A DNA stretch of 64,000 nt from an uncultured Gemmatimonadota bacterium (GTDB taxonomy: Bacteria; JAAXHH01), in the NCBI GenBank assembly GCA_951812955.1, contig OX638340.1:3168001-3232000 (forward strand). The letters run 5' to 3'. Below the pieces are notes generated by a model. It saw only the letters and a list, made by a program, of their open reading frames with translations. It did not search any database and was not told the DNA's origin. Positions 8,902 through 29,382 of the stretch are shown one piece after another. How positions within the stretch are numbered: position 1 is the first letter of the stretch; each line of letters starts with the position of its first letter. The position numbers and the translations under genes are program-made.

Positions 8902-9214
8902 CGGGGTTCCTTTCGGTTTCTCGTGGGGATGCGATAAACAAACATATCGTCGAATACCGTGGCTAACCTTATACCTTTACAAGAGTGTATTATAAGACCG
9001 CCTGAACGATACATCAAGGATCAATAGGAACATGTGTGATTGCTCGTTTGTGGGTTGAAGCGAACTGTGAGATTTGGTATATTGCGGGGATCGGATTCCA
9101 GATCATACGTCTGGACGGTTTGTCCTGATTTGTTGTAGTTCACTTTCCAGTTACATGAGGAGGCATGAACACACGGCATACCGCTGATTAGTAGCAGTTC
9201 GTGCCATTTCCCTT

Positions 9215-10189
9215 TTGTTAGCGGTACAAAAGATTACCTGCTGCATTAATACTGAAGTAAGGCAACTTATCTGTGAGGTGTTTGTGGACGAGTATTCCAA
9301 TTTAATCAAAGCAATCGCTACATTTCTGTGGCCATCTCTTACTTTTGTTGTCGTTCTCATCTTCAGAAGAGAGATTGGAGATGCAATTGAGCGCCTCAAA
9401 AAAGGCAAGTTGTTTGGTCAGGAGGTAGAGCTTCATAATAACCTAGAAACATTACATCAGTCAGTATCTCGGGCATCGGACGAGGTTGCGTCACTGCCGA
9501 AGCCGAAAGAACTGGAAAACGAAGACGATGGCCAGCACAGGGATAAAGAAGACGACGAAGTGATTCGTTCAGTTATACATGAAGCGTCGCATTCTCCTAA
9601 GGCGGCATTGATGATTTTGGCTGCCGAGATAGAAAAGGAAGCCAGGTTAATTCTTGCTAGTGTCGGCAAGATAGATGGACGGTCGCACATTCCAATAACT
9701 CAGGCCATTCGTGTCTTGGATTCACACTATGGACTACCGCGTTTTCTTTCCAGCAGCCTGAACCTATTTTGGGACACTCGCAACAAGTTAATCCATGGCA
9801 GAGACACCGAAGACGGGAATGTCCTCAGTGCGCTTGATTCTGGTATTACGATTTTGAAATCGCTGCAAGCCCTTCCAAGGCAGCTAAACATCGTTTACAA
9901 AACGGGGGTACCAATCTACTCAGATCCAGATTGCCAACACGAGATTACCAATGCGACTGGAGTGATTCTAGAAAGTCGATCCAATGAATATGCGCAGTTT
10001 TGTTACAGGATTTTCCCTACAACTCGTTCACATTTTGAGGAGGGTAGATCAGTAGCCTGGGAATGGAATATGAACGATATTTGGCAAGACGCTTGGTACC
10101 GAGATCCTCTAGAACCTGGGGGAGCGATTAAACTTGCCTGGAATTCTTCCGCAGAATTTATAGGCCGTCATTTAGACGACCTTGGATAA
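9215..10189 (+). CDS. AT-rich-encoded hypothetical protein with an N-terminal transmembrane helix and a HEPN-like Rx4HG motif.
   Basis: The GC content is low, unlike the flanks. A TM segment ATFLWPSLTFVVVLIF is present. The motif LNLFWDTRNKLIHGRD matches the HEPN R-x(4)-H-G signature seen in Abi / DUF4145-type RNases. The ORF starts with TTG; a shorter product from Met at about residue 135 is also possible. Confidence 0.5.
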   Translation: MLAVQKITCCINTEVRQLICEVFVDEYSNLIKAIATFLWPSLTFVVVLIFRREIGDAIERLKKGKLFGQEVELHNNLETLHQSVSRASDEVASLPKPKELENEDDGQHRDKEDDEVIRSVIHEASHSPKAALMILAAEIEKEARLILASVGKIDGRSHIPITQAIRVLDSHYGLPRFLSSSLNLFWDTRNKLIHGRDTEDGNVLSALDSGITILKSLQALPRQLNIVYKTGVPIYSDPDCQHEITNATGVILESRSNEYAQFCYRIFPTTRSHFEEGRSVAWEWNMNDIWQDAWYRDPLEPGGAIKLAWNSSAEFIGRHLDDLG

Positions 10190-10658
10190 CTTGCTTAGTT
10201 TCACAAACAAGAAAATCCTCTGGTGCAGACTGAACCTCTGCCGGTCATAATGGGTTTGGTATACTGAGATTGAAACCCCGGTACACCGTTGAAAACCGTT
10301 CCTTTACGTATTTCGTGTTTAACTTGTTATATGTACGATTTAGGCATGTATTTGGAATGTTAATAAGTTAGCTGGTAGTCCTTCGAATCGGTATGTCAGA
10401 ATATACCATACATCCTTGCCAAAGTTGTTAATAAGTATTGTCTGTGTGGCAGTATAATTCAGTTTAAGGCGGCGTATCCACCAATAGCCTTACATTGCCG
10501 TGAAAAACAGGCTCATAAATTACGGATCAAGATTAAGAGGTATTCGGTTTTGAAGCTATAGTGAACTGATTGATATGAACGAAATTCGCATAGGTAAAGC
10601 AGATTACCGGAAGCAGTCATCAGAATAGGTTTACTACTACACAACGACTGTAGAATGA

Positions 10659-11378
10659 ATGGATTCGACGGGTCAATCGGACTGGTTAATGGCAAAATTG
10701 GACGCACACTACAAGGGACACCGTAGCCGACTCCGTGAGCGGTTCCAAAAGAGTGGATTTGGTGGATTCGCTGAGCACGAGGTCATTGAGTTACTGTTGA
10801 CGATGGCCATGACCCGTTCGGACGTAAAACCACAGGCCAAGATGTTGCTTGAGCGTTTTGGCAGTCTGCGAGGCATTTTGGATGCACCAGTATCCGAACT
10901 GCAGTCGGTAAAGGGAATTGGTGAGATTTCAGCCATACTACTGAAAGTTATCCGTGAATCGGCGACGATGTATTTATTGGAAGCATCAAAAGAAACAGAA
11001 GTCCTCAGCGATCCGGAGCGGCTCAGCAATTTCTGGCGCATGCGAATCGGCCATCTTAAGAACGAAGTGTTCGCTGTCGCTTACCTTGATTCAGCTTATC
11101 GGTTGTTGCGTAATGGCGTAGAAACGCTTCAGGAAGGTACGATAGACCGTGCAGCGGTGTACCCGCGCCGCGTCGTGGAGGCGGCACTTAATCGCCAGGC
11201 GGCGGCCCTCGTGCTCGCGCACAACCATCCGAACGGCGATGTCGAGCCGAGCGAACAGGACAAGATGATAACACGCGCCGTCACGCTTGCAGCCGAAACC
11301 ATCAGCATACGAGTCGTCGATCATCTAATAGTGTCGGCCTCGGAGACTTTCAGTTTCAGAAAAGCGGGACTGCTATGA
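10659..11378 (+). CDS. radC: RadC-family JAB-domain protein (UPF0758).
   Basis: The N-terminus has a helix-hairpin-helix (LLERFGSLRGILDAPVSELQSVKGIGE). The C-terminus has the JAB/MPN metalloprotease motif LVLAHNHPNGDVEPSEQDKMIT...VVDHLIVS. Its stop overlaps the next gene's start in ATGA. Confidence 0.9.
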   Translation: MDSTGQSDWLMAKLDAHYKGHRSRLRERFQKSGFGGFAEHEVIELLLTMAMTRSDVKPQAKMLLERFGSLRGILDAPVSELQSVKGIGEISAILLKVIRESATMYLLEASKETEVLSDPERLSNFWRMRIGHLKNEVFAVAYLDSAYRLLRNGVETLQEGTIDRAAVYPRRVVEAALNRQAAALVLAHNHPNGDVEPSEQDKMITRAVTLAAETISIRVVDHLIVSASETFSFRKAGLL

Positions 11379-14239
11379 GTATCGCGCCAGCGATCCAGAA
11401 GCACTTTCCTGAGCTTATCTACAGCCAGAGGGAGGTCGTCGGCCATCTCGACGGACCGTTGCTGGTGATTGCGGGACCGGGATCGGGCAAGACTTTCAGC
11501 ATTGTCCTGAGGGCCTTGAATCTTATGTTGCTGGAGAAGGCCGAGCCAAATGAGATTCTGCTCTGCACCTTTACCGAAAAAGCTGCCTACGAGATGCGGG
11601 ACCGATTGACTGCAGCGGCCCGTAAAGTGGCGTACACGGGTGACCTTTCCGAACTGAAGGTCTCGACCATACACGGCTTCTGCCACCGGATGCTCGCCCA
11701 ACACCGGCACAAGACTGAACTCGGGCACAACTACGAAACGCTCGACGAATTGACACAACTTCTCTTCATATTCGAGCACTTCGACGAGATCATCGGTCCG
11801 CCTATCGACGACCGTTTTCTCACTCGCTGGAAAACGCGTTGGACAGCCATTGAAGGCGTGCGTGGCTATTTTGACAAGATCACGGAAGAATTGGTAGACT
11901 CTCGCTGCCTTACGGCATCCTCCGACCCATTTTTGTCGGTGATTGGTACTGCGTATCAACACTACGAACAAGCCCTGCAAGTGGCCAACAGGATTGACTT
12001 TGCCCACCTGCAGAGAACCGTATACGGCCTGCTGGACAACTCTACGGACACCGCTGCCATTTCCACCGACGTGCGCTATCTGCTGGTAGACGAGTATCAG
12101 GACACGAACTACATACAAGAGCGGATTCTCCTGAAGTTGGCCGAACCGGGCAACAACTTATGCGTCGTAGGGGATGAGGATCAAAGCCTCTACCGTTTCA
12201 GGGGCGCGACTGTCCGTAACATCCTGGAGTTCGCACAGCACTTTCAGGAATGCAGGATCGCCAGGTTGACAACAAACTACCGGTCTCACCGCTCAATTGT
12301 AGAGCGCTACGACCATTGGATGGAGTCGGCTGACTGGTCCGATCCAGCGGGAGGTTCATACCGACACGAGAAAACCATCGTTGCTGATCCCATGGCGCAA
12401 CATCCTGACTATCCCTCTGTCATAAGCATTTGGGGAAGGAACAGGCACGATGAAGCCGACCGGTTCGCCGATCTCGTCGAGTTCCTTAAAGAGAGCGAGG
12501 TAATAGTAGATTACAGTCAGATCGCATTGTTGCTGCACAGCGTGCGCGAACAACACAGCGGCCCTTATCTGGAGGCGTTGCGGCGCAGGGGCATCCCCGC
12601 GTTCTGTCCTCGGGCGCGCGTCTTCTTCCATATACCGGAGATTCGCTATCTGATCGCCTGTTATGCCATTTTGTTCGGCTGGTACGGCGACCGGCGCGGT
12701 GATCTCATAGGCGTCGTGAAGCAACTTGCTGAGTACGTGGACGAGGCCATTATCGACTTAAGCAAGCGCTTCGTGTCCACCGACCCGCTCGCGGAGAGAC
12801 TTCAGAGTTGGACCGGCGAGATCGCGGCGCTTCAGGAAGAAGAGACGCTCGACCTGCGGCCGGCCGATTATTTCTATAGACTGATCGCACTTGATCCATT
12901 CCGGAAGGCTGTCCGAAACGAAAACACCGCACGCAACTTAGCCATTTTCTCCGAACTTCTGACCATTTTTCAAAGCTATTATCATTTTCCGGTCATTACG
13001 TACAGGAATCGCGAGTACATCCGATTTCACTTCTTCAACAGCTTCTTGCGATTTCTCCACGCTGGCGGAATCAACGAGTACGAGGATCCGGACAAGCCGT
13101 TCCCTCGGGGCCACGTGCAGGTGATGACTGTCCATCAGGCCAAGGGCCTTGAGTTCCCTGTAGTCGTTGTCGGGTCCCTTTCGGTGTCTTTAAGCAGCCC
13201 CAAGCAAATCGATCGCAACCTTATGCCATTCTATCACCGCCCGCCCTTCGAGCCGGAGGACCGGATCACGCTCTTCGACCGCATGCGGTTGCACTACGTA
13301 GCGTTTTCACGACCGGAAAGACTGCTGGTACTTACCGCGCACGAACAACCGAAAGACTACTTCTCACCCATTTGGCAAGGGCTTCCCCAGTGGCCGTACA
13401 TCCCTAAGGAAACGCTGGCCAGCCAATCCTTCGAGCGACACGAGCGTATGCCGATCAAAAAGACGTATAACTTTACGGGTGATCTCAAGGTTTACGAAAC
13501 ATGCCCTCGCCAATATCAGTTCTTCCGCGAATACGGCTTTGCACCCTCCCGTTCCGCGGAGATGTTCTTTGGACTGCTCGTACATCAGTCTATCGAGGAA
13601 ATCCACCGTATCGCCCTTGACGGCCTAATCCATACGCTGGACGACGCGCGTGTCGGCGAGTTGTTTGAAAGAACTTACCAGTTTCTAAATCTCACCGATA
13701 GGCGTCCCATTGGCGATAGAGCGAAGGAGTTGGCTTTAAAGCAGGTATTGAACTATTATCGACAGAACCAGGATGGATTGAATCGGATCATCGAGACGGA
13801 GGTGGATGTATCGCTGGAGAAAGACGGGTACATACTCGCAGGAAAGGTCGATCTTCTTCTCGGCGACGACGGCAAGTTGGAACTATTGGATTTCAAAACC
13901 TCGCCGCGTCCGGCAAGCACGCCCGAACTAATCGCCGCATACGGAAGACAACTCTGCACCTATGCGCATATACTGGAGCAACGGCACGAAAAACATGTGG
14001 ACCGGTTGCTACTGTATTGGACAGCAGAGAAATCACGGGACCAGGCGCTCATGGTCCTGCCGTTACGCCCGGAATCGATAGAGGAAGCGGGCCGATACTT
14101 CGACGAGACCGTAAAACGGATTCAGACAGGTAAATTCGTGGTAAACACACCTCCCGAAGCGAAAGTCTGCCAGGAATGCGACCTGCAGATGCTGTGTCAC
14201 GCGGACGGTGTTATAGAATGGGCGGAGGCAGTCGCTTGA
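11375..14239 (+). CDS. UvrD/PcrA-type SF1 DNA helicase fused to a C-terminal Cas4/RecB-like PD-(D/E)xK nuclease with a 4-Cys Fe-S cluster.
   Basis: All helicase motifs are present: AGPGSGKT (I), TFTEKAA (Ia), VDEYQDTN (II), VVGDEDQSLYRFRGA (III), NYRSHRSIV (IV) and TVHQAKGLEFP (V). The C-terminus has CPRQY...DLLLGDDGKLELLDFKT (D..ExK), QLCTYAHIL (QxxxY) and CQECDLQMLC (Cx2Cx5C). Confidence 0.9.
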   Translation: MSIAPAIQKHFPELIYSQREVVGHLDGPLLVIAGPGSGKTFSIVLRALNLMLLEKAEPNEILLCTFTEKAAYEMRDRLTAAARKVAYTGDLSELKVSTIHGFCHRMLAQHRHKTELGHNYETLDELTQLLFIFEHFDEIIGPPIDDRFLTRWKTRWTAIEGVRGYFDKITEELVDSRCLTASSDPFLSVIGTAYQHYEQALQVANRIDFAHLQRTVYGLLDNSTDTAAISTDVRYLLVDEYQDTNYIQERILLKLAEPGNNLCVVGDEDQSLYRFRGATVRNILEFAQHFQECRIARLTTNYRSHRSIVERYDHWMESADWSDPAGGSYRHEKTIVADPMAQHPDYPSVISIWGRNRHDEADRFADLVEFLKESEVIVDYSQIALLLHSVREQHSGPYLEALRRRGIPAFCPRARVFFHIPEIRYLIACYAILFGWYGDRRGDLIGVVKQLAEYVDEAIIDLSKRFVSTDPLAERLQSWTGEIAALQEEETLDLRPADYFYRLIALDPFRKAVRNENTARNLAIFSELLTIFQSYYHFPVITYRNREYIRFHFFNSFLRFLHAGGINEYEDPDKPFPRGHVQVMTVHQAKGLEFPVVVVGSLSVSLSSPKQIDRNLMPFYHRPPFEPEDRITLFDRMRLHYVAFSRPERLLVLTAHEQPKDYFSPIWQGLPQWPYIPKETLASQSFERHERMPIKKTYNFTGDLKVYETCPRQYQFFREYGFAPSRSAEMFFGLLVHQSIEEIHRIALDGLIHTLDDARVGELFERTYQFLNLTDRRPIGDRAKELALKQVLNYYRQNQDGLNRIIETEVDVSLEKDGYILAGKVDLLLGDDGKLELLDFKTSPRPASTPELIAAYGRQLCTYAHILEQRHEKHVDRLLLYWTAEKSRDQALMVLPLRPESIEEAGRYFDETVKRIQTGKFVVNTPPEAKVCQECDLQMLCHADGVIEWAEAVA

Positions 14240-14306
14240 TGTCCAAGGAATTCTTTATTCTCATCCAAAATCGGATGATGTTTGGCAAACCAAAAGGAAC
14301 CTGAAA

Positions 14307-16274
14307 ATGGCAAAGATCGACATCACAAAGACCGAATTGGTCTGGCCTGGAAAGTTCGATGAGGATGGAACGCTTAGGGAAGTTCCTCGGGTCAACCTGC
14401 CATTTCAAGTCATCGAAACCGTGAATGAGAGTCGTGCTACGCGCGAAGTAAAGAAAGGTACGGTGCAGGAGTCCCTTTTTGATTTCTATGAAGGTAAGGA
14501 GGGGGACACCTTTGAGGATGGATGGAAGAACAAGCTCATATGGGGCGACAATCTGCTGGTGATGGGTTCATTGCTGGAGAAGTTTGCAGGGAAGATCGAT
14601 CTGATCTACATCGATCCGCCTTTTTTTACAGGAGTTAACCAGCTAGCAACGGTGTTTCTTGGGGAGGGCAATACTGGATTTGAGAAAGAGACGTCAATCA
14701 CAGAGGATGTAGCGTATAGAAATGCGTGGCGTGACGGGGATCCGTCCTTCATGACATGGATTCGAGATCGACTCAGTCTTATGCGTGATCTTCTCAAACC
14801 GAGCGGCATTATCTTCATTAGGTTTGACCAATACTGGAGCCACAGCGTTAAACTGATCGCAGATGAAGTCTTTAGCCGGGATTTGTTTCAGAACGAGATT
14901 ACAGTGAAACGTATTTTTAAAAACGTCACAGGTCAAGGTCGCGTCTCAATTCCACTCGCTACAGATACATTGTTTTTGTACTTCCGAACCGATCAAGCGC
15001 AATTTGCAGATACCCTAGTTCCAAGGGAGAAGACGCGGCCGGGATTCTGGCGACACATGGACGATTCTTCGGGCGTCAGGCGTCCACCTGAGCGCCGTAT
15101 GTTTGGAAGAGTCTTCTATCCACCGCCTGGCAAGCATTTCAAATTTTCCCAAGCAAACATCGACAAGAAGATAGCAGATGGAAAAGTCAGACTCAATCCC
15201 AAGACTGGTAAGCCCGAGTACTGGGTCGAGGAGAGTTCAGTTAAACCCTTGAATTCGAATTGGACAGACATCCCAGGCTACTCGTTCACTACCTCCTATC
15301 CAACGGAAAATTCCGAAGCACTCCTTCAAAGAGTCATCAAAGTTGCGTCACATCCGAATGCACTCGTGGCAGATTTCTTCGGTGGTTCTGGCACGACAGC
15401 AGCAGTCGCTGAACAACTTGGCCGTCGCTGGATCACGTGCGACGTTGGTCGTTTTTCGATCCACACGATTCGGAAGCGACTGCTCGACATTGAAAACTGC
15501 CAACCCTTCGAGGTACTGAACCTTGGTAAATATGAGCGCCAGTATTGGCAGGGGGTGACGTTCGGCGGTCAGAGCAACAAGTCACTAACCGAAAAAGCAC
15601 TCTATGAGTACCTTGCCTTCATCCTTAAGCTATATGGCGCACAGCCGGTAGCGGGATTGGAACATCTACATGGGAAGAAAAACAAGGCTATGATACACAT
15701 TGGCGCGGTGGATGCCCCGGTCACCATTGACGAGATCGATGATGCTGTAGAAAATTGTGCCAAACTGAAGCAGGCTGAATTGCACGTTCTTGGCTGGGAA
15801 TGGGAAATGGGACTCCAGAATCTTGTAGTTTCACAAGCACAGAAGAAGGGCGTGAAACTAATACTCCTGCAGATACCCTTGGAAGTGATGGAGCAACAGG
15901 CCGTGGATGATGGCGATATCCGATTTTTCGAACTGGCCTATTTAAGGGCGATGATAGTAAAACCAAAGAAACTTACCGTGCAAGTTCACCTTAAAGATTT
16001 TGTCATCCCCAACACCGAACTCATCCCTGAAGAAGTGCGGGACAGGGTTACGAAGTGGTCGGACTACATCGACTACTGGACTGTGGACTGGGACTTTCAG
16101 AACGACACCTTCATGCAGGGATGGGTAGCCTACCGCACCCGCAAAGATCGAACGCTCTCACTCATTTCCGACTTTCACACTTATGAAAAGCCCGGCAAAT
16201 ACCAAGCTCTGGTCAAAGTAATCGACATCTTCGGCAACGACACCTCGCAACTTCTTGATGTCGAGGTGAATTAA
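14307..16274 (+). CDS. mod: Type III restriction-modification system methyltransferase (Mod), beta-class N6A/N4C DNA MTase.
   Basis: It carries IYIDPPFFTG (motif IV, DPPF) followed by FGGSGTTAAVA (motif I). That order is typical of Type III Mod. It lies 3 bp upstream of the res gene. Confidence 0.85.
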   Translation: MAKIDITKTELVWPGKFDEDGTLREVPRVNLPFQVIETVNESRATREVKKGTVQESLFDFYEGKEGDTFEDGWKNKLIWGDNLLVMGSLLEKFAGKIDLIYIDPPFFTGVNQLATVFLGEGNTGFEKETSITEDVAYRNAWRDGDPSFMTWIRDRLSLMRDLLKPSGIIFIRFDQYWSHSVKLIADEVFSRDLFQNEITVKRIFKNVTGQGRVSIPLATDTLFLYFRTDQAQFADTLVPREKTRPGFWRHMDDSSGVRRPPERRMFGRVFYPPPGKHFKFSQANIDKKIADGKVRLNPKTGKPEYWVEESSVKPLNSNWTDIPGYSFTTSYPTENSEALLQRVIKVASHPNALVADFFGGSGTTAAVAEQLGRRWITCDVGRFSIHTIRKRLLDIENCQPFEVLNLGKYERQYWQGVTFGGQSNKSLTEKALYEYLAFILKLYGAQPVAGLEHLHGKKNKAMIHIGAVDAPVTIDEIDDAVENCAKLKQAELHVLGWEWEMGLQNLVVSQAQKKGVKLILLQIPLEVMEQQAVDDGDIRFFELAYLRAMIVKPKKLTVQVHLKDFVIPNTELIPEEVRDRVTKWSDYIDYWTVDWDFQNDTFMQGWVAYRTRKDRTLSLISDFHTYEKPGKYQALVKVIDIFGNDTSQLLDVEVN

Positions 16275-16276
16275 CC

Positions 16277-19120
16277 ATGGCAAAAGCCGTCATCAATTAC
16301 GACAAGGAGTTGCCGGAGATTCAAGATCGGCGACCTTGGGAAAAGCCCGGATCCTACTTGGTCAAGGACGAAGAGGAGCCAACGGGTTGGCGGGAGGATA
16401 CTTCCGGCCGTCGCCCGACCAAGCTTCTGCTGGTGCCTAAAATCCGTAAGGCCGTTGATGCGTGGCGAGACAGTGGCTACAAAGGAGCATCGGAAGTCTC
16501 CCTGCGCTTGTTTGAGTATTGGTTCCATGAGGATCACAAGGTCAACGGATTCGATACGCCGTTCCGGTACTACTTCTGCCAACGAGAAGCTATAGAAACG
16601 CTGGTCTGGTTGGTGGAGGTCGCCTGCCAGCAGGACGCGATAGCGCTTATAGAGAAATATGGATCGTTCTATCAACTGGACCTTCTATCGAAAAACATTG
16701 AGTTTCAGACTACCATAGATGGCAGGCGGCAGATTCGTCGATACATACCAGAACTGGAACAACATGGCATACAGGACTTACCGTCCAAAGAATTGCGTCG
16801 CTACGCCTTCAAGATGGCCACTGGGTCGGGTAAAACCTGGGTGATGGCCATGATGGTCGTCTGGTCGTGTTTCCACAAGCAGCGCGTACCTGGTTCGAAA
16901 CTTTCCACGAATTTCCTTATCGTAGCCCCCAATGTGATCGTCTATCAGCGGCTGGAGAAGGACTTTGCAAACAACCGGATATTTAATGAGTTACCATTGA
17001 TCCCGCCGGAATGGAAAGGCAATTTTAACCAAAAGGTGATTTTGCGCGGGGAAGTCGCTGAGCCCGACCCGTCGGGGAATCTGTTTCTTACGAATATCCA
17101 TCAACTGTACGAATCTCGCGATCAGAAGTGGACCCCGGGAAACGCCGTCGAAGCCCTCCTGGGCAAGACCCCCGCGCCAGATCTCGCGGCATCTGGTCAG
17201 CGGACCATGCTGGAGTGCGTGAAGTATCTAAAAGACCTCGTCGTGCTAAATGACGAAGCCCACCACGTCCATGATGACGACCTATCCTGGAATCAATCTC
17301 TGCTGGCTATTGATAATGCGTTGCCGAAGGGACTCTGCGCTTGGCTCGACTTTTCAGCCACGCCGAAAGACCAGAACGGCATGTACTTCCCTTGGACCGT
17401 TGTGGACTACCCGTTGGCACAGGCCGTGGAGGATAGAATCGTCAAAGCCCCACTCATCGTAACCAAGGGGGATGATCCCAATCAGCCGACCGAAGATCCC
17501 GATGGGATCACTAAGGAGAACGTAGCACAGAAATACGGTTACTGGCTACAGGCCGCCGCGCAACGTTGGAAGGAACACTGGCAGATTTACAGGAAGCTCG
17601 GGACCAAGCCTGTCCTCTTTGTCATGGCTGAAAAAAACATCTATGCAGATGCCCTGGGAGAGTATCTGTGGAAGACTAAGGAATTTGGTTTCAAGGAATC
17701 CGAGGTACTCGTTATCCATACGGACAATACGGGTGAAGTTCGGAAAGGGGATATCGAGAAAGCCCGGAAGGCTGCAAGAGACATCGATAAGGCAGAGAGC
17801 AAAATAAAAGTGATCGTCAGCGTTATGATGCTGCGCGAGGGTTGGGACGTTCGGAATGTTACAGTGGTACTGGGTTTGCGCCCCTATACTGCGAAAGCCG
17901 AGATATTGCCGGAACAGGTGATCGGTCGCGGACTTCGTCTGATGACCCAGGTAAGCCCCGACCAAACGCAGACCCTTGAGGTGCTCGGAACGCGTAACCT
18001 GCTCGAAGTGCTACGCGATCAACTTGAGGCTGAGGGCGTCGGAGTAGCGAGTACGAAGGACAATACGCCACTGCCAGTCATCATTGAGCCGGTGCAGGAA
18101 CGACTGAATTACGACATCGCCATTCCAATCACGAAACCGAGTCTAACACATGATTTCCGCAAACTGTCCACCGTTGATGTGCCATCGCTGGAAGCGATTT
18201 ACGATCAGGAAGAACTGGCCGAACCGTTTCGGGTCGGTCTGAAGATGGAATTCGCAATGACGGAGACCGAGGTTCATCAAGCCGACGTTGCGTTGCAACT
18301 CCGACCTGCCCAGGAGCTTTTGGCGAGCATCGCCAACAAGACGGCTGAGCGCGCCAATCTGACTAACTGTTTTGCGGAATTGTATCCCATTATTCAGGAT
18401 TATGTCGAGAATCGTTGCTTTGGACATAAAATTGAACTGTCAGATGAAACCATTCGCTCCCATCTCGAAAGATTGGAGTTGCAGAATGGGATTGCCGGAT
18501 ACATGGCACGTAAGCTTTCGACGCTTTCCATTAAACGGCATGCAGTCGAGTTCGAGAAAGAGGATTACCGTCTTTCCCTGACCAGACCCTTTAGCTGGCG
18601 ACGCAACTTGCCACCAATGCAGGCGTACAAAACGATTTTCAACTTCGTGGCCACCTACAATGACTTTGAGCGAAGCTTTGCGACGTTCTTGGATGGAGCG
18701 GAAGATGTGGTGCGCTTTGCGGCACTTGGCACGACAGAACAAGGACGTTCCGGTACGACATTTCACATCGACTACCTGAAACCGACTGGGGCTATCGGAT
18801 TCTACTATCCAGACTGGGTAGTCGTTCAAAAGGCCAAAGATAACGAAGTGAACTGGATCGTTGAGACCAAGGGCCGAGTCTGGGAAGGAACCGCCGAAAA
18901 AGATGTCGCAGCGCGAAACTGGTGCAAGCGGGTAAGCAACGCCACGGGAAAGCCTTGGAAGTACACCCGCATCAACCAGTCAGAGTTTACGGATGAACTC
19001 GCGACGTTTCGCGCACTGATTGTAGATAAGGCGATTAAAACCTCAGTTCAACGACACGAAAACATGCAACCGGTAACGCAGGAAGAAATCCGCCGCTGGA
19101 AAGAAGAGGGCCGTCGCTGA
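16277..19120 (+). CDS. res: Type III restriction enzyme Res subunit (SF2 DEAH helicase plus C-terminal PD-(D/E)xK endonuclease).
   Basis: It has MATGSGKTWVMA (Walker A) and VLNDEAHHV (DEAH). The C-terminal segment YYPDWVVVQ...WIVETKG is the PD..ExK endonuclease motif. The protein is 947 aa. Confidence 0.85.
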   Translation: MAKAVINYDKELPEIQDRRPWEKPGSYLVKDEEEPTGWREDTSGRRPTKLLLVPKIRKAVDAWRDSGYKGASEVSLRLFEYWFHEDHKVNGFDTPFRYYFCQREAIETLVWLVEVACQQDAIALIEKYGSFYQLDLLSKNIEFQTTIDGRRQIRRYIPELEQHGIQDLPSKELRRYAFKMATGSGKTWVMAMMVVWSCFHKQRVPGSKLSTNFLIVAPNVIVYQRLEKDFANNRIFNELPLIPPEWKGNFNQKVILRGEVAEPDPSGNLFLTNIHQLYESRDQKWTPGNAVEALLGKTPAPDLAASGQRTMLECVKYLKDLVVLNDEAHHVHDDDLSWNQSLLAIDNALPKGLCAWLDFSATPKDQNGMYFPWTVVDYPLAQAVEDRIVKAPLIVTKGDDPNQPTEDPDGITKENVAQKYGYWLQAAAQRWKEHWQIYRKLGTKPVLFVMAEKNIYADALGEYLWKTKEFGFKESEVLVIHTDNTGEVRKGDIEKARKAARDIDKAESKIKVIVSVMMLREGWDVRNVTVVLGLRPYTAKAEILPEQVIGRGLRLMTQVSPDQTQTLEVLGTRNLLEVLRDQLEAEGVGVASTKDNTPLPVIIEPVQERLNYDIAIPITKPSLTHDFRKLSTVDVPSLEAIYDQEELAEPFRVGLKMEFAMTETEVHQADVALQLRPAQELLASIANKTAERANLTNCFAELYPIIQDYVENRCFGHKIELSDETIRSHLERLELQNGIAGYMARKLSTLSIKRHAVEFEKEDYRLSLTRPFSWRRNLPPMQAYKTIFNFVATYNDFERSFATFLDGAEDVVRFAALGTTEQGRSGTTFHIDYLKPTGAIGFYYPDWVVVQKAKDNEVNWIVETKGRVWEGTAEKDVAARNWCKRVSNATGKPWKYTRINQSEFTDELATFRALIVDKAIKTSVQRHENMQPVTQEEIRRWKEEGRR

Positions 19121-19542
19121 TGGCCACTGTGATCGATGCTTCGGTGATGGTAGCCTTCCTGTTACGCAACGAAGATAATAGTCGTTACGCACGACGAATA
19201 GTCGAAAGACTTGATAGGGAAGAACTGATCGTGCCGAGGATTTTCTGGTATGAAGTTCGTAATGTTCTATTGAAGGCGAAACGGAACAATCGAATTGGGC
19301 AACAGGATTTTGAAGATTGCCTGATTCAACTCACGGATGAGATTTCACCGACAGAGGATGACAGAAACGACGAAGATAGGACGTTGGACCTCGCACTACG
19401 TCATAACCTTACGGTATATGACGCAAGCTATCTCGAGACGGCCATCAGACGCAAAGCTAGCTTGGCGACCTTCGATCGAAACCTCGCGGATGCGGCCTCT
19501 AGCGAAAGAGTTGAGAATCCGGCAGTCGGTTTTAGCGCTTAG
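19120..19542 (+). CDS. vapC: PIN-domain ribonuclease, VapC-family toxin-like, with no VapB gene called on either side (see findings).
   Basis: The protein is MATVIDASVMVAFL...YEVRNVL...YDASYLETAI...ATFDRNL. It has the four conserved acidic positions of a PIN fold. Its ATG overlaps the res TGA (TGATG). Confidence 0.85.
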   Translation: MATVIDASVMVAFLLRNEDNSRYARRIVERLDREELIVPRIFWYEVRNVLLKAKRNNRIGQQDFEDCLIQLTDEISPTEDDRNDEDRTLDLALRHNLTVYDASYLETAIRRKASLATFDRNLADAASSERVENPAVGFSA

Positions 19543-20244
19543 GGCGGATGCATTCCCCAGAAAAGAAGAACGTGTCTTCCGCGCTGGTGCTGAATTCAGG
19601 ATCGCGGGAGAATCCAAAGGATGGGAAAGGGATACTGCCAGCAGAATTGCGACAGGGTAGGTATGGCAACAGGCCGAGTTCCACCGCTAATATGGAGCCA
19701 CGCCCGGAGAATGGCTTGCACACCTTTGTGAAGTTGTAGCGGTCAGTTTATGCGATGTGAACCAGCGCGGTGGATGTACTTCAGGCTAGATTATCACTGC
19801 GCGTTTATGGCGGAGGGTGGCGTTCCGGGCACGTAACCGAGTCTCTGGTAATGCCGCAAGGCGCAAGACGGGGTCCTGAAGGCCTTCCCAAGCGGGGTTC
19901 GGTGCGGATTGAAGAGGTGACTCCGGACCTGCATCAAGTTGATCCACAATCCCAACACTGGTGAATTACCCGTCCTCGGTAGCGCACCTTGGTTTTTGTG
20001 TAGCAGTTCAATTGGGAATGCTGACCTTCACTTTGTCGCTGTGCCCCTTATCTCCTCGGGCAGATCTTCAAGCGATTTGTGGTTGGAGGTCGCGAAGGGT
20101 TGACTATCTGATTCTTATCACTAACCACCGCTTCTAAACACCGTTCACCCTGTTCATAACTCAAATGTAGTCTGCAAAACGCCAGGTACGTCGCAAGACT
20201 TCAGAAACTGTTACAGAATCCGGAACAAAAAAGGGTCACCTCCC

Positions 20245-23774: not shown

Positions 23775-24287
23775 TTGGAGCACTTTCCAGTGAAAGATCT
23801 CATCCTGGTACGGCACGCCAAGTCGAGCTGGAGGGACCCATCCCTCGATGACCATAGTCGGCCGCTCAACAAGCGCGGGAAGCGGGACGCCCCCGAGATG
23901 GGCGTCCGGCTGGCGCGTCGTGGGTATGCTCCCGACCTGCTCATTTCGAGTTCCGCTGTCCGTGCCCTGGAGACGGCGAGGACGATTGCGGAGAAACTCG
24001 ATTATCCGCAATCGCGGATCCGGGTGGAGAAGCTGCTCTATCTGGCGGGCGTCGACGTATTGCTCGAAGTGGTTCGCGGCGTGGCCTCGACAGTCGAAAC
24101 CCTTATACTGTTCGGGCACAACCCGGGATTTACGGATTTATCGAACCTGCTCGGACCCCGCGACATCTTCAACATGCCCACCTGCGGCGTGTTGCATCTG
24201 CGGTTTGACACTGCAACCTGGAATGCGATCGGCCAGGTTGCCGGCGAAGAGGTGCTCTACGACTTCCCCAAGAGGGTTCAAAAATAG
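23775..24287 (+). CDS. sixA: Histidine phosphatase family protein (SixA-like phosphohistidine phosphatase).
   Basis: It has LILVRHAKSSWRD (the RHG-type motif) and LFGHNPG. The true start is probably GTG 23790 (VKDLILV...). Confidence 0.75.
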   Translation: MEHFPVKDLILVRHAKSSWRDPSLDDHSRPLNKRGKRDAPEMGVRLARRGYAPDLLISSSAVRALETARTIAEKLDYPQSRIRVEKLLYLAGVDVLLEVVRGVASTVETLILFGHNPGFTDLSNLLGPRDIFNMPTCGVLHLRFDTATWNAIGQVAGEEVLYDFPKRVQK

Positions 24288-24355
24288 ATCGCTCGCCGCA
24301 CGCGCGCACCGGCCTGTAGGTAATATCTACGTGGTAAGCAGGAGGAATCGAATTT

Positions 24356-25015
24356 ATGGAAACGAAGGAATTGAAGTTCACCGCGACGGTGGAAAAAGGC
24401 GAGGTATCGGCCTTGTTTGCCGATCCCGGCGACGCGAAAGCACTACTCGTGCTCGGCCACGGGTCGGGTACGAATATGCGGCACAGCTTCATGCAGGAGC
24501 TGAGCGACGCGTTGAACGGTGCGGGGATCGCCACTTTCCGGTTCAATTACCCCTATTCCGAGAAGGGTGGCGGCGGCATGGACGGCGAGAAGGTTCGTCT
24601 GGCCACGGTGCGGGCCGCTGTCGAGACGGCGGCGGAGCACGGTGACGGATTACCCCTTTTCGCGGGCGGACATTCCATGAGCGGCCGCATGTTCTCGATG
24701 GCCTGCGCCAACGCGCCCATAGAAGGGCTGCGGGGGATCGTGTTCGTCGCGTTTCCGCTACACGCAGGCAAGCCGAATACGGAACGGGCCGAGCATCTCA
24801 AGGACGTGGACGTGCCCATGCTCTTCCTGTCGGGCCAGCGGGACAGGATGGCCGACCTCGCGTTGCTGGAACCGGTCGTAGAGGCCCTGGAAAACGCGAC
24901 CCTTCACGTCGTCGATACGGCGGATCACGGGTTCAAGGTGCTCAAGCGCCGGAATACCGATGAACCTGTCATGGAGGAGCTGGCCAGGGTGGCGGCCGAG
25001 TGGATGGTGAAGTAG
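24356..25015 (+). CDS. Alpha/beta hydrolase (dienelactone-hydrolase/TEX30-like).
   Basis: It contains LVLGHGSGTN, a nucleophile region GGHSMSG (GxSxG) and a C-terminal DTADHGF motif. Confidence 0.7.
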   Translation: METKELKFTATVEKGEVSALFADPGDAKALLVLGHGSGTNMRHSFMQELSDALNGAGIATFRFNYPYSEKGGGGMDGEKVRLATVRAAVETAAEHGDGLPLFAGGHSMSGRMFSMACANAPIEGLRGIVFVAFPLHAGKPNTERAEHLKDVDVPMLFLSGQRDRMADLALLEPVVEALENATLHVVDTADHGFKVLKRRNTDEPVMEELARVAAEWMVK

Positions 25016-25115
25016 AGGTGGCCCGTTCGGGGATGCCCTGCATCCCATACTGAGATCGTGAAAACGGTGTAGGATGGAAGTTCTTTTTCTGTTACAGTGT
25101 TAGGTCTTACAGACA

Positions 25116-25991
25116 ATGGATAAACGATTTTCAAACATAGATTTTCCAATGGCGCAGCTAGAGGATGAACTCGCCAGAGATCATGCTGTGTTCAAGGACT
25201 TGCTTTCAACTTCTATGGCGGAAATGGTAAACCAGAATCCGCAGCTTTTTTCGCTTAAAGTCAACAACATCAATAGCGTAAAGATTTACTTCGAGTTGGG
25301 ACGATCATTACCCAAAGGAGTATTATTGGATTTCCTTCTAAAACTTCAGCAACATGTAGAAGAAGAAATGTGTTCCTCTATAGCGACTCAAACTGGAAGA
25401 CCAATATCAATAGATGAGTTAAGCGGTGTTCTTACAGTTCCACAATCAGACTACCAAATACTGCGTGATTTGCAGGAGTATTATAAATCAAAGTTAGTTA
25501 AGAACATTCAAATTGGTATGTTGGGTATGATAAGCAGAAGTATCCCTGATACTCAACAAACACATCCTGATATTGAGATCGTTATCGACCTAAAAGATGT
25601 AGGAGGAACAAGGCGGTTTTTGTACGTCGAATCTCAGGGTAAAGTACAGAAAGATCTAGTGGTCAAGCTCACATCAGTGACCCTCGATACAAACGTTTTA
25701 ATGGAATGGTGGAAAGAGCAAAAAAAGGTAGAAGTAGTAGAGAATCTTCTGACAATGGGAGAGCAATTCGAAATTGATCTTGCGGTCACAAGTAGAATCC
25801 GCGATGACGTATTTCGTCCACCCCTGTCTGACAGGATTAATGAGCTACCCAGTCTGAATGTTCAAGAGATTGGGTCTGTTATACGAATCGGGCACTGGAA
25901 GGTAGGTGTAGACGCAGTGGGCGACACGGAGTTCAGGGAATTTGTAGATTCCAATGAAGTTCAACAGAAGATTAAATATTTGATAAAATGA
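25116..25991 (+). CDS. AT-rich-encoded hypothetical 291-aa protein; the C-terminal ~120 aa have a PIN-like signature (LDTNVLMEWW).
   Basis: GC drops sharply across 25.05-26.2 kb. The C-terminal third has DTNVL, then later acidic residues (RDDV, DAVGDTE) spaced as in PIN folds. The N-terminal 170 aa match no family I know. The stop overlaps the next gene in ATGA. Confidence 0.5.
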   Translation: MDKRFSNIDFPMAQLEDELARDHAVFKDLLSTSMAEMVNQNPQLFSLKVNNINSVKIYFELGRSLPKGVLLDFLLKLQQHVEEEMCSSIATQTGRPISIDELSGVLTVPQSDYQILRDLQEYYKSKLVKNIQIGMLGMISRSIPDTQQTHPDIEIVIDLKDVGGTRRFLYVESQGKVQKDLVVKLTSVTLDTNVLMEWWKEQKKVEVVENLLTMGEQFEIDLAVTSRIRDDVFRPPLSDRINELPSLNVQEIGSVIRIGHWKVGVDAVGDTEFREFVDSNEVQQKIKYLIK

Positions 25992-26188
25992 AGCGGATTA
26001 ATAACGAACCCGATTGGCGGGATTGGGATCATGTTCATACTCATTACAGGTATAGGAGGGACTTTTTTCTTACCTGGGATAAGGGGATCTTAGCGTTCGC
26101 GGAAGAGTTTGAGAGTAAAATGGGGATTCAAGTACTGAAACCTGAAGACTACCTTACAGAATCCAAGATACAATCTTCGGGATCATGA
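25988..26188 (+). CDS. Small hypothetical protein (66 aa), translationally coupled partner of the preceding gene.
   Basis: It has a 4-nt overlap (ATGA) with the upstream ORF. The protein is Trp/His/Arg-rich (MKRINNEPDWRDWDHVHTHYRYRRDFFLTWDKG...). I recognise no family. Confidence 0.45.
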   Translation: MKRINNEPDWRDWDHVHTHYRYRRDFFLTWDKGILAFAEEFESKMGIQVLKPEDYLTESKIQSSGS

Positions 26189-26211
26189 CCGACTTCGGTA
26201 GGAGTAATTAG

Positions 26212-27585: not shown

Positions 27586-27822
27586 TTGATCTCGCCAGGA
27601 ATCGATTTCGTCGTTTCCAGGAAAACGCGATGCCGTTCCCCCGCGAACTCCCAGGCACGTATCCACCGGACTCCGTCAACCCTTCTTCCACGCTTGAATG
27701 ATCCTCCCACCTGCTACCTTTCGCCCCACGATCAATTTAGCGTAACATTATATTGCTTTATATTAAATATAGCGTAATTTTTATTATAAAGAGCATTAAT
27801 TTACGCCAAAAGAGGTAGAATC

Positions 27823-29076: not shown

Positions 29077-29382
29077 CTGTGCTTCCCCTGTTGGGAATAA
29101 TGCTATTTCATCACGAGAATTTGGTGACAAGTGACACTGAAGGAATATGACGATCTAACAGAAACGGCTTGACATCATGTACATAAAGCGAAGAAGATAA
29201 CACCATGCGGCCCCGAGTCATGACGGTTCACAACGCCTTCTTCGAAAGAGACTCTATTTATGAAGATTTCAAAATGAAATCGAGTTATGAAAAGAGAGGC
29301 GCCGTGGCCAGGTATGAAGGCTGGACGCGGAGATTGAAACGAATCTGACTTGTCTGGGATTTGGGGGTAGATCCGGCCAACG

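What the first reader, a model, noticed from the sequence alone, without database searches (positions are those of the whole stretch)
10659..14239. RadC (JAB) translationally coupled to a UvrD-SF1 helicase / Cas4-like Fe-S nuclease fusion: candidate undescribed two-gene defence module
The radC stop and the helicase start overlap (ATGA at 11375-11378), so the two are co-translated. The 954-aa product combines a complete UvrD/PcrA motif set with a C-terminal RecB-family nuclease carrying a Cas4-type Cx2Cx5C Fe-S cluster and a QxxxY motif. That is the AddA/AddB logic compressed into one polypeptide. Pairing it with a RadC-like JAB protein (common on mobile elements) directly upstream of an R-M system suggests a Gabija/Nhi-like helicase-nuclease immunity module. 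In Gabija the UvrD-like GajB is paired with the nuclease GajA. Nhi, as I recall it, has the nuclease N-terminal. This gene has the opposite domain order and a different partner.
Basis: partly seen in the sequence, partly recalled or inferred. Interest (0 to 1): 0.65.

Follow-up and report, generated by a model that had tools for sequence, protein, structure and literature searches.

The report
RadC-coupled helicase-nuclease in Type III restriction operon
The RadC gene and the helicase-nuclease gene are real and tightly coupled, but they are two parts of a mobile four- to five-gene Type III-like restriction-modification operon; the helicase-nuclease link to such operons was predicted in 2017, and only the RadC partner looks new.

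Summary
radC (10659/10689-11378) overlaps by ATGA a 954-aa protein made of a UvrD helicase and a Cas4/AddB-type Fe-S PD-(D/E)XK nuclease.

The pair is not a self-standing two-gene module beside an unrelated R-M system. It heads one tight operon, radC-helNuc-mod-res-PIN, on a low-GC island.

- **Close relatives (77 non-redundant related loci).** RadC ends at the helicase start in 50 of 57 informative loci. Mod and Res follow in 30 of 35, directly or after inserted accessory genes. The flanks are unrelated.
- **Distant relatives (28-50% identity).** These lie on plasmids, on a phage and in E. coli. They keep helNuc-mod-res but have no RadC.

So the three-gene unit is old, and RadC was added in one very abundant, cross-phylum clade.

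Hudaiberdiev et al. (2017) already described the UvrD-Cas4 fusion and its Type III Mod/Res neighbourhood and predicted a defence role. I found no paper that mentions RadC in this context, and no experimental test.

Most likely mechanism (inferred): Mod/Res cuts unmethylated DNA, then RadC plus the helicase-nuclease unwind and degrade it from the break.

Verdict: new variant of a known, uncharacterised kind. Interest is moderate.

The parts
10659..11378 (+). radC: a full-length RadC with an N-terminal UPF0758_N/helix-hairpin-helix region and a C-terminal JAB (JAMM) domain. The likely true start is the ATG at 10689 (229 aa).
   Evidence: Domain hits. PDB 2qlc RadC matches at 2.2e-19. Conserved E..HxH..D residues. 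Homologue lengths.
11375..11378 (+). ATGA overlap of the radC stop and the helicase-nuclease start, which suggests translational coupling.
   Evidence: Sequence read. The same junction is kept in 49 of 52 loci.
11375..14239 (+). helNuc: a 954-aa UvrD/PcrA-type SF1A helicase fused to a C-terminal Cas4/AddB-type PD-(D/E)XK nuclease with four cluster cysteines.
   Evidence: The family is highly conserved, above 70% identity across phyla.
13484..14200 (+). Nuclease domain of helNuc (residues 704-942): C710, D826, D839-x-K841, Q859xxxY863, C932-x2-C935-x5-C941.
   Evidence: Pfam PDDEXK_1 2.5e-25 and Cas_Cas4. Invariant columns.
14307..16274 (+). mod: a Type III-type beta-class N6/N4 DNA methyltransferase (DPPF at residues 103-106). 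Its recognition region varies between loci.
   Evidence: Pfam N6_N4_Mtase 2.6e-30. PADLOC MTase_III 3.1e-104. Sequence. Only 53-61% identity between loci, where the other genes keep about 70%.
16277..19120 (+). res: a Type III-like restriction subunit with an SF2 ATPase (GSGKT 183-187, DEAH 326-329) and a C-terminal PD...ExK nuclease (P845-D846, E863-x-K865).
   Evidence: Pfam ResIII 4.5e-19 and RE_endonuc. PADLOC REase_III 1.9e-17. NCBIfam BPTD_3080-family restriction endonuclease 1.2e-84, below its cut-off. Motifs.
19120..19542 (+). PIN-domain gene whose ATG overlaps the res stop (TGATG). It is an optional fifth gene found only in the window's closest relatives.
   Evidence: Pfam PIN 7e-19. 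Junction sequence. Present after res in L001 (remnant), L082, L126, L171 and L172.
9000..20200 (.). Low-GC island (44-55% against about 62-64% in the flanks) that carries the cassette. It also holds a non-conserved 324-aa ORF (9215-10189) with no family match.
   Evidence: Composition. No Pfam, NCBIfam, PADLOC or PHROG match for the ORF. The upstream genes are unrelated between loci.

Best explanation
The finding is the front half of a horizontally mobile Type III-like restriction-modification operon, radC-helNuc-mod-res(-PIN).

**Composition (shown).** The UvrD/Cas4-like helicase-nuclease is an ancient, conserved third component of this class of Mod/Res systems. RadC was recruited once, in front of it and translationally coupled to it. 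That happened in one very successful clade, which includes this window.

**Mechanism (inferred).**
1. Mod methylates host sites.
2. The Mod/Res complex recognises unmethylated foreign DNA and its C-terminal PD-ExK nuclease makes a break.
3. The helicase-nuclease, made in about 1:1 ratio with RadC, loads at that break or nick. It unwinds 3'->5' and degrades the invader. This gives the system its own RecBCD/AddAB-like destruction step, one that phage RecBCD inhibitors cannot block.
4. RadC carries an HhH DNA-binding domain and a Zn-dependent JAB hydrolase domain. It acts as an accessory subunit at the DNA end, either cutting the second strand or removing end-bound protein.
For: **Operon geometry in the window.** There is a 4-nt overlap between radC and helNuc, a 67-nt gap to mod, a 2-nt gap to res, and a 1-nt overlap to PIN.

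**Co-occurrence in 77 non-redundant loci.** RadC abuts the helicase start in 50 of 57 loci with enough upstream DNA. Mod and Res lie downstream in 30 of 35 loci with at least 6.5 kb.

**No other conserved partner.** Flanking genes are unrelated between loci. Among 150 flank ORFs there are 146 Pfam families, and none occurs in more than 3 ORFs.

**The three-gene core is older than RadC.**
- L179: helNuc 49%, Mod 48%, Res 46% identity, with no RadC.
- Six plasmids, one phage and three E. coli chromosomes at 33-36% identity carry helNuc-mod-res without RadC.
- In an NJ tree RadC is absent from the outgroup and from basal branches. It is present in the crown, with scattered losses that include a RadC remnant in L108 and a frameshifted copy in L116.
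- L181 (56-57% identity) still has the overlapping RadC.

**Active sites are kept.** The helicase and nuclease residues are invariant, the RadC JAMM residues are conserved, and Res has Walker A, DEAH and PD-ExK.

**Selection pattern fits an R-M system.** Mod is the most variable gene, at 53-61% identity against about 70-78% for the others.

**Literature.**
- The UvrD-Cas4 fusion is reported as monophyletic, most often next to Type III Mod/Res, and is predicted to be a defence component (PMC5704561).
- ZomB, a UvrD plus Cas4-like protein, has ATP-dependent nuclease activity (10.1101/2020.06.16.154153).
- RadC is fused to DinG helicases and has been predicted to process nucleic acids (PMC5512222; PMC11981726).
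Against: - No experiment on this family was found, so every mechanistic step after 'these genes travel together' is inference.
- In 36 of 62 loci other genes sit between helNuc and mod. These are a SACS-HATPase/NOV_C protein or a Schlafen-HATPase_c_4-HTH protein. The two halves can therefore be separated physically.
- A few loci keep RadC-helNuc without Mod/Res (L086, L160). Some distant relatives are solitary (L167, L169, L182, L183).
- For a related three-gene m4C Type III system, Murray et al. found the extra helicase-like protein was needed neither for methylation nor for in-vitro cleavage (PMC8259958). Whether that protein belongs to this family is unknown.
Confidence: 0.6

Rival explanations
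1. RadC plus the helicase-nuclease form an autonomous two-gene anti-phage module of the Gabija/Nhi kind. It merely tends to land next to R-M systems in defence islands.
For: - The pair is translationally coupled, and the junction with mod is a hot spot for insertions.
- RadC-helNuc persists without Mod/Res in L086 and L160.
- Solitary helNuc genes exist among distant relatives.
Against: - Mod and Res of the same families follow helNuc in 30 of 35 informative close loci, and they co-diverge with it.
- The three-gene unit is conserved without RadC across plasmids, a phage and E. coli.
- Random defence-island neighbours would vary between loci, as the true flanks do.
- No GajA-like partner is present, and PADLOC has no model for RadC.
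Confidence: 0.12
2. RadC and the helicase-nuclease protect the host rather than attack the invader. They would repair or process self-inflicted breaks, or clear stalled Mod/Res complexes. That would lower the autoimmune cost of carrying and horizontally acquiring a Type III system (restriction alleviation).
For: - Relatives of the fusion (AddAB, AdnAB, RecBCD) are recombinational-repair end-processing enzymes.
- Hudaiberdiev et al. suggest an ancillary role analogous to RecB/AddB.
- The cassette moves frequently between phyla, where newly arrived R-M systems are dangerous.
Against: - Most hosts already encode RecB (statement in PMC5704561).
- No recombinase or Chi-recognition partner is linked to the cassette.
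- The accessory genes inserted in the operon are defence-type proteins.
- Nothing here tests this reading directly.
Confidence: 0.2
3. The helicase-nuclease is a housekeeping AddA/RecB/UvrD-type repair enzyme and radC a housekeeping gene. On this reading their position next to an R-M system is incidental.
For: The best sequence matches to solved structures are PcrA/UvrD. RadC reaches the NCBIfam 'RadC family' threshold.
Against: - All curated equivalog scores are far below their cut-offs: pcrA 214 against 911, addA 149 against 708, recB 114 against 696.
- The genes lie on a low-GC island, and the flanks differ in every locus.
- Only 3 of 5426 E. coli genomes carry a relative.
- Identity stays above 70% across phyla, which indicates horizontal transfer.
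Confidence: 0.02

Closest known systems
UvrD-Cas4-like fusion proteins linked to Type III Mod/Res (Hudaiberdiev et al. 2017, 'Phylogenomics of Cas4 family nucleases', PMC5704561)
   Same: The architecture is the same: an N-terminal UvrD SF1 helicase and a C-terminal pfam12705 Cas4-like nuclease. The neighbourhood is the same: Type III Mod and Res, sometimes with WYL/HTH regulators and Schlafen-like ATPase-HTH genes. All of this was seen again here.
   Different: That paper and its held supplements never mention RadC, JAB or COG2003. The RadC-coupled clade, its abundance and the SACS-HATPase/NOV_C inserts are not described there. Like this report, it is purely computational.
Classical Type III R-M systems (EcoP15I, EcoPI)
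   Same: mod comes before res. Mod is a beta-class N6/N4 methyltransferase. Res has an SF2 ATPase followed by a C-terminal PD-(D/E)XK nuclease.
   Different: Res is very divergent. NCBIfam type III endonuclease scores 19.5 bits against a cut-off of 564, and there is no sequence match to any solved structure. The operon carries two or three extra conserved genes that two-gene Type III systems lack.
Three-gene m4C Type III systems Eco86II/BspHIV with an extra helicase-like ATPase 5' of mod (Murray et al. 2021, PMC8259958)
   Same: A conserved helicase-like gene lies immediately 5' of mod-res and is found in hundreds of genomes. Its role is unknown.
   Different: That protein is described as SF2-like and lacking any PD-ExK motif. 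Here it is SF1 UvrD-type with a clear nuclease domain. Identity of the two families was not tested. No RadC is reported there.
AddAB / AdnAB / RecBCD helicase-nucleases
   Same: A UvrD-like SF1 motor is fused to a RecB-family nuclease. The nuclease is the Fe-S-cluster type, as in AddB.
   Different: This is a single polypeptide with no AddB, RecC or RecD partner gene. Equivalog scores are far below their cut-offs. It is mobile and R-M-linked, not core. Its partner is RadC.
Gabija (GajA/GajB) and Nhi
   Same: These are defence systems that combine a UvrD/SF1 helicase with a nuclease. PADLOC GajB models hit the helicase core.
   Different: No OLD/TOPRIM GajA neighbour is present. The GajB matches cover only residues about 10-310. 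Neither system is linked to Mod/Res or RadC.
RadC-DinG fusions, and ZomB of S. pneumoniae ICESp23FST81
   Same: RadC is physically joined to a DNA helicase in RadC-like DinG proteins (PMC11981726). ZomB is a UvrD helicase plus Cas4-like nuclease protein on a mobile element, with demonstrated ATP-dependent nuclease activity.
   Different: In the DinG case RadC is fused to an SF2 helicase, not coupled to an SF1 one, and no R-M link is described. ZomB has two Cas4-like domains and no reported RadC or Mod/Res partner. Its relatedness to this protein was not tested here.

Membership tests
UvrD-Cas4-like fusion family (largest pfam12705 branch, Hudaiberdiev 2017) | N-terminal UvrD/REP SF1 helicase and C-terminal pfam12705 (PDDEXK_1) Cas4-like nuclease in one polypeptide | tested here: met
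   UvrD-helicase 1.4e-65 (residues 17-291), UvrD_C, PDDEXK_1 2.5e-25 (704-942), Cas_Cas4 23.8 bits
UvrD-Cas4-like fusion family (largest pfam12705 branch, Hudaiberdiev 2017) | Typical neighbourhood: Type III Mod and Res genes | tested here: met
   mod and res lie directly downstream in the window, in 30 of 35 informative close loci and in distant relatives
Type III restriction-modification | Mod: beta-class N6/N4 amino-methyltransferase, encoded upstream of res | tested here: met
   N6_N4_Mtase 2.6e-30. PADLOC MTase_III 3.1e-104. DPPF motif. mod stop to res start is 2 nt
Type III restriction-modification | Res: SF2 helicase-like ATPase followed by a C-terminal PD-(D/E)XK endonuclease | tested here: met
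   ResIII 4.5e-19, GSGKT 183-187, DEAH 326-329, PD 845-846 and ExK 863-865. RE_endonuc is weak at 7e-4
Type III restriction-modification | Res orthologous to the characterised EcoP15I/EcoPI-type enzymes (curated threshold) | tested here: not met
   NF012027 scores 19.5 bits against a cut-off of 564. The best NCBIfam hit is the BPTD_3080-family endonuclease at 284.9 against 800. No PDB sequence match
Type III restriction-modification | ATP-dependent cleavage that needs two inversely oriented unmethylated sites, with hemimethylation by Mod | not testable with these tools
   This needs biochemistry and SMRT methylome data. Motif IV (DPPF) does not separate m6A from m4C (PMC8259958)
RadC family (JAB/JAMM clade) | RadC-type JAB domain with E..HxH..(S)..D metal site. 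The full-length form has an N-terminal HhH region. | tested here: met
   Pfam RadC 2.7e-36. NF000642 scores 194.6 against a cut-off of 180. UPF0758_N and HHH are found. PDB 2qlc matches at 2.2e-19. E174, H188, H190 and D201 are conserved
AddAB / RecBCD / AdnAB | Orthology to AddA, RecB or AdnA/B at the curated threshold, plus partner subunit genes | tested here: not met
   addA 148.8 against 707.65, recB 114.2 against 696, RecB-like 135 against 650. The neighbours are RadC, Mod, Res and PIN
Gabija | GajB UvrD-like helicase paired with a GajA OLD-family (ATPase-TOPRIM) nuclease | tested here: not met
   GajB models match only residues about 10-310. No GajA hit in any of the 7 neighbouring proteins scanned
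Nhi | Single protein with an N-terminal nuclease and a C-terminal SF1 helicase | tested here: not met
The domain order here is helicase then nuclease.
CRISPR-associated Cas4 | Stand-alone or Cas1-fused Cas4 reaching the TIGR00372 threshold and encoded in a cas operon | tested here: not met
   TIGR00372 scores 47.9 against a cut-off of 65. No cas genes among the neighbours scanned. CRISPR arrays were not searched for.

The most novel reading that the evidence does not exclude
RadC would be a dedicated subunit of an R-M-coupled DNA-end destruction machine. In this clade a Type III-like Mod/Res enzyme hands its break to a RadC-helicase-nuclease complex. RadC's Zn-hydrolase domain would cut the second strand, or strip protective proteins from phage DNA ends. 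This would define a four-component 'restrict-and-shred' class of R-M system. It would also give the first biochemical function for the RadC family, which has been enigmatic for about 40 years.
Probability: 0.3. Interest if true: 0.75.

Novelty: new variant of a known kind. Interest (0 to 1): 0.5.

Why it matters
**RadC.** RadC is one of the most widespread bacterial proteins with no known activity. 'RadC, a misleading name?' (2008) is still the state of the art, according to a 2025 review. Here RadC is locked by a conserved 4-nt gene overlap to a helicase-nuclease inside a restriction operon, in thousands of environmental sequences. That gives a concrete and cheap experimental setting in which to find out what RadC does.

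**Type III R-M systems.** The result also shows that a large class of 'Type III' R-M systems in soil and aquatic phyla has three or four components, not two. Current catalogues such as the PADLOC and NCBIfam models do not represent this.

**If the inferred mechanism holds.** It would show that R-M systems can carry their own RecBCD-like degradation step.

Tried and rejected
1. **Genome-contig scan with the full-length alignment A1.** The tool chose generic UvrD motifs (YLLVDEYQ, NLCVVGDE). I repeated the scan on metagenomes with a nuclease-domain alignment (A2), and that worked.
2. **AlphaFold2 model of the helicase-nuclease.** It was built from 25 close homologues and came out at mean pLDDT 43 and pTM 0.27. 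That is too poor for fold search, so no structural comparison was made. Domain assignments rest on sequence profiles.
4. **Look-up of the source contig through P0121.** It failed and no names were returned, so the host organism stays unidentified (one 3.8-Mb contig, about 63% GC).
5. **Repeat, promoter/terminator and Rfam scans of the island.** No island-bounding direct repeats, counts at shuffle level, and no RNA family.
6. **Literature searches.** Terms were RadC with Type III, UvrD, Cas4, COG2003 and BPTD_3080. No paper links RadC to this system. The library lacks most subscription journals, so absence is not proof.
7. **Whether the extra helicase of Eco86II (Murray 2021) is this family.** Not resolved. 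Three E. coli genomes carry a helNuc-mod-res relative, but NCTC86 was not among the hits.
8. **Rejected readings.** Gabija, Nhi, AddAB, a CRISPR-associated Cas4 role, and a housekeeping role. See the membership tests.

Full report
**Observation.**

The sequence CTATGAGT at 11373-11380 places the start ATG of the second gene over the TGA stop of the first.

The first product is a full-length RadC:
- Pfam RadC scores 2.7e-36, and UPF0758_N and helix-hairpin-helix matches are also found.
- NCBIfam RadC equivalog scores 194.6 bits against a cut-off of 180.
- PDB 2qlc matches at 2.2e-19.

The second product is a UvrD/PcrA-type SF1 helicase (Pfam 1.4e-65) joined to a PDDEXK_1/Cas4-like nuclease (2.5e-25). 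Its Walker A, DEYQD, D826, D839-x-K841, Q859xxxY863 and the four cysteines C710/C932/C935/C941 are all invariant in 25 homologues.

One correction is needed. Homologues and the 100%-identical database entry are 227-229 aa, so radC most likely starts at the second ATG, 10689.

**Surroundings in the window.**

The pair is followed on the same strand by three more genes:
- after 67 nt, a Type III-type Mod methyltransferase (14307-16274; PADLOC MTase_III 3.1e-104);
- after 2 nt, a Res subunit (16277-19120). It has ResIII 4.5e-19, GSGKT, DEAH and a C-terminal PD...ExK. NCBIfam places it nearest the BPTD_3080-family restriction endonucleases;
- with a 1-nt overlap, a PIN-domain gene (19120-19542).

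The block lies in an island of 44-55% GC, in a genome of about 62-64% GC. The island is flanked by ordinary metabolic genes. No tRNA, bounding repeat or Rfam element marks its ends.

**Close relatives.**

The helicase-nuclease has an unusually tight and abundant family. The 120 best of about 8000 hits are all 71-92% identical and 948-974 aa long. Their labelled sources span Gemmatimonadota, Acidobacteriota (Vicinamibacterales), Planctomycetota and Betaproteobacteria. The RadC behaves the same way, with its best 120 hits all at least 72% identical.

I fetched 80 metagenome loci with a nuclease-domain alignment, and further loci from genomes, viral contigs and look-ups. This gave 77 non-redundant loci.
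- Of 57 loci with at least 720 nt upstream, 50 have RadC ending at the helicase start.
- The alignment end coincides exactly with the helicase start in 49 of 52.
- The seven loci without RadC include one with a 31-residue RadC remnant (L108). A further locus, L116, carries a frameshifted copy.
- Of 35 loci with at least 6.5 kb downstream, 30 have both Mod and Res.
- Sampling from the RadC side gives the same cassette (P0194 and P0211).
- The genes just outside RadC and Res are unrelated from locus to locus. Among 150 flank ORFs there are 146 Pfam families, none in more than three ORFs. There are occasional SIR2, Shedu, HsdM and phage-portal genes.
- Three IMG/VR viral contigs carry a member of this clade, two of them (L173, L174) with the whole cassette; L175 has no RadC and its contig ends within Mod.

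The mobile, conserved unit is therefore radC-helNuc-mod-res, not radC-helNuc.

**A variable slot.**

In 36 of 62 loci, extra same-strand genes lie between helNuc and mod. They are of two kinds:
- a protein, mostly of 960-1500 aa, with a Sacsin-type HATPase domain and a NOV_C (DUF3883) domain;
- a 390-500-aa Schlafen AlbA_2/HATPase_c_4/HTH protein.

The window has the direct arrangement.

**Distant relatives.**

At 50%-identity clustering there are more than 100 full-length representatives at 28-57% identity.

- *With RadC.* The 57% representative (L181) still has an overlapping RadC and a Mod.
- *Three-gene cassette without RadC.*
  - The 50% representative (L179) has helNuc-Mod-Res and no RadC. 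All three genes have diverged to a similar degree, at 49, 48 and 46%.
  - At 33-36% identity the same cassette occurs on plasmids of Blastomonas, Phaeobacter, Nitrosomonas, Enterococcus, Tunicatimonas, Priestia and Vibrio.
  - It also occurs on an Acutalibacteraceae phage and in 3 of 5426 complete E. coli genomes.
  - In three of these that I scanned (Blastomonas, Phaeobacter, the phage), Res has a TnsA-like C-terminal endonuclease.
- *Solitary.* A few relatives stand alone.
- *Split.* One has separate helicase and nuclease genes beside a TGT-like gene.

A rough NJ tree places RadC-less lineages outside and at the base of the RadC-bearing crown. The simplest history is an old helNuc-mod-res system to which RadC was added once, with later sporadic losses.

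**What is already known.**
- Hudaiberdiev et al. 2017 (PMC5704561) describe exactly this UvrD-Cas4-like fusion as the largest branch of pfam12705. They report it as monophyletic and most commonly next to Type III Mod and Res, with WYL/HTH and Schlafen-like ATPase genes. They predict it to be a component of defence systems with an ancillary unwinding and cleavage role.
- Neither their text nor the held supplements mention RadC, JAB or COG2003.
- Murray et al. 2021 report m4C Type III systems with an extra helicase-like gene 5' of mod. It was dispensable for methylation and for in-vitro cutting, and is described as lacking a nuclease motif. Whether it is the same family is unresolved.
- ZomB, a UvrD plus Cas4-like protein on a pneumococcal ICE, has ATP-dependent nuclease activity.
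- RadC itself still has no known activity. It occurs fused to DinG helicases and has been predicted to process nucleic acids, although its fold resembles JAMM peptidases.
- PADLOC v2 has no model for RadC and only generic GajB or DRT-helicase matches for the fusion.
- I found no experimental study of this system, and no paper linking RadC to it. The caveat is that the library omits most subscription journals.

**Mechanism.**

*Shown:*
- gene content;
- operon geometry;
- conservation of all catalytic motifs;
- co-inheritance and co-divergence of helNuc, Mod and Res;
- the clade-specific, translationally coupled RadC;
- horizontal mobility;
- a variable Mod, as expected for a specificity subunit.

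*Inferred:*
1. Mod/Res acts like a Type III enzyme and breaks unmethylated DNA.
2. The helicase-nuclease loads at the break and degrades the invader processively.
3. This supplies an in-house RecBCD/AddAB-type step. That would be useful because Type III cleavage is orientation-dependent and sparse, and because phages inhibit RecBCD (general knowledge, not tested here).
4. RadC is made stoichiometrically with the motor and assists at the DNA end.

*Confidence:* about 0.9 for the compositional statement and about 0.45 for the degradation mechanism. RadC's exact chemistry is open.

**Rivals.**
- An autonomous two-gene module (0.12) is disfavoured by the co-divergence with Mod/Res and by the RadC-less three-gene relatives.
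- A host-protective or repair role (0.2) cannot be excluded by computation.
- A housekeeping role (0.02) is contradicted by composition, variable flanks, sub-threshold equivalog scores and rarity within E. coli.

**Verdict.**

The object is a new variant, RadC-coupled and often with PIN, of a known but experimentally untouched kind: Type III-like R-M with a UvrD-Cas4 helicase-nuclease. It is moderately interesting, mainly as a handle on RadC function and as evidence that many environmental 'Type III' systems have three or four components.

Noticed in passing
L091:4160-7450, L103:10795-14007, L108:10753-15273 and about 20 other loci, always between helNuc and mod: A large same-strand gene, mostly of 960-1500 aa, with a Sacsin-type HATPase domain at the N-terminus and a NOV_C (DUF3883) domain at the C-terminus is repeatedly inserted in the operon. 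In L153 the two domains are on separate genes.
   Followed up: partly
L099:10735-12243, L090:1393-2757, L153:15364-16791, L160:3361-4545, L171:12643-13512: The same slot alternatively holds a Schlafen AlbA_2 / HATPase_c_4 / HTH (Fic-like_C) protein. This accessory is also noted by Hudaiberdiev 2017.
   Followed up: partly
L127:10735-14956 (also L150): In this variant Mod is missing. DUF7380 and a DUF1016/YhcG PD-(D/E)XK nuclease gene sit between helNuc and Res. A Res without a Mod is unexpected for a Type III system.
   Followed up: no
window 19120-19542: A PIN-domain gene is start/stop-overlapped with res (TGATG) and has no obvious antitoxin gene. It recurs after res only in the closest relatives (L082, L126, L171, L172, remnant in L001).
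   Followed up: partly
window 19543-20244: About 700 nt without a convincing ORF lie between the PIN gene and the next host gene. GC content is intermediate, and there is no Rfam hit and no tRNA. This may be the right-hand scar of the island.
   Followed up: partly
window 9215-10189: A 324-aa ORF (TTG start) in the lowest-GC part of the island (44%) has no match in Pfam, NCBIfam, PADLOC or PHROGs. It has no counterpart upstream of RadC in other loci.
   Followed up: partly
window about 24000-29100: This is a second low-GC patch (48-51%). It holds an unannotatable 291-aa ORF (25116-25991), an RmuC-family gene (26212-27585) and an AAA_14/DUF4143 ATPase (27823-29076). It may be another acquired island.
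   Followed up: no
L004:8203-13028: A distant relative (31% identity) in a Thiosymbion MAG has the helicase and the PDDEXK_1 nuclease as two separate genes. A TGT-like/DUF6884 gene lies directly upstream, and NACHT-LRR and Fic genes are nearby. This hints at a link to a base-modification system other than Mod/Res.
   Followed up: no
L166:3764-5901 (Tunicatimonas pelagia plasmid): A phosphoribosyltransferase gene and a DprA gene lie immediately upstream of helNuc-mod-res. DprA, like RadC, is a DNA-processing protein from competence regulons.
   Followed up: no
L178 (E. coli VG888-46E9 chromosome, between IS remnants and yecA-tyrP): Only 3 of 5426 complete E. coli genomes carry a helNuc-mod-res relative (Vibrio-plasmid type, 72% nucleotide identity). 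It is annotated simply as 'ATP-dependent helicase'. It may be related to the three-gene Eco86II-type systems of Murray et al. 2021.
   Followed up: partly
L093:767-2107 (-), L172:6045-7883 (-): A Shedu (SduA_C) gene and a SIR2_2 gene lie next to the cassette in individual loci. So the cassette sometimes sits among other defence genes.
   Followed up: no
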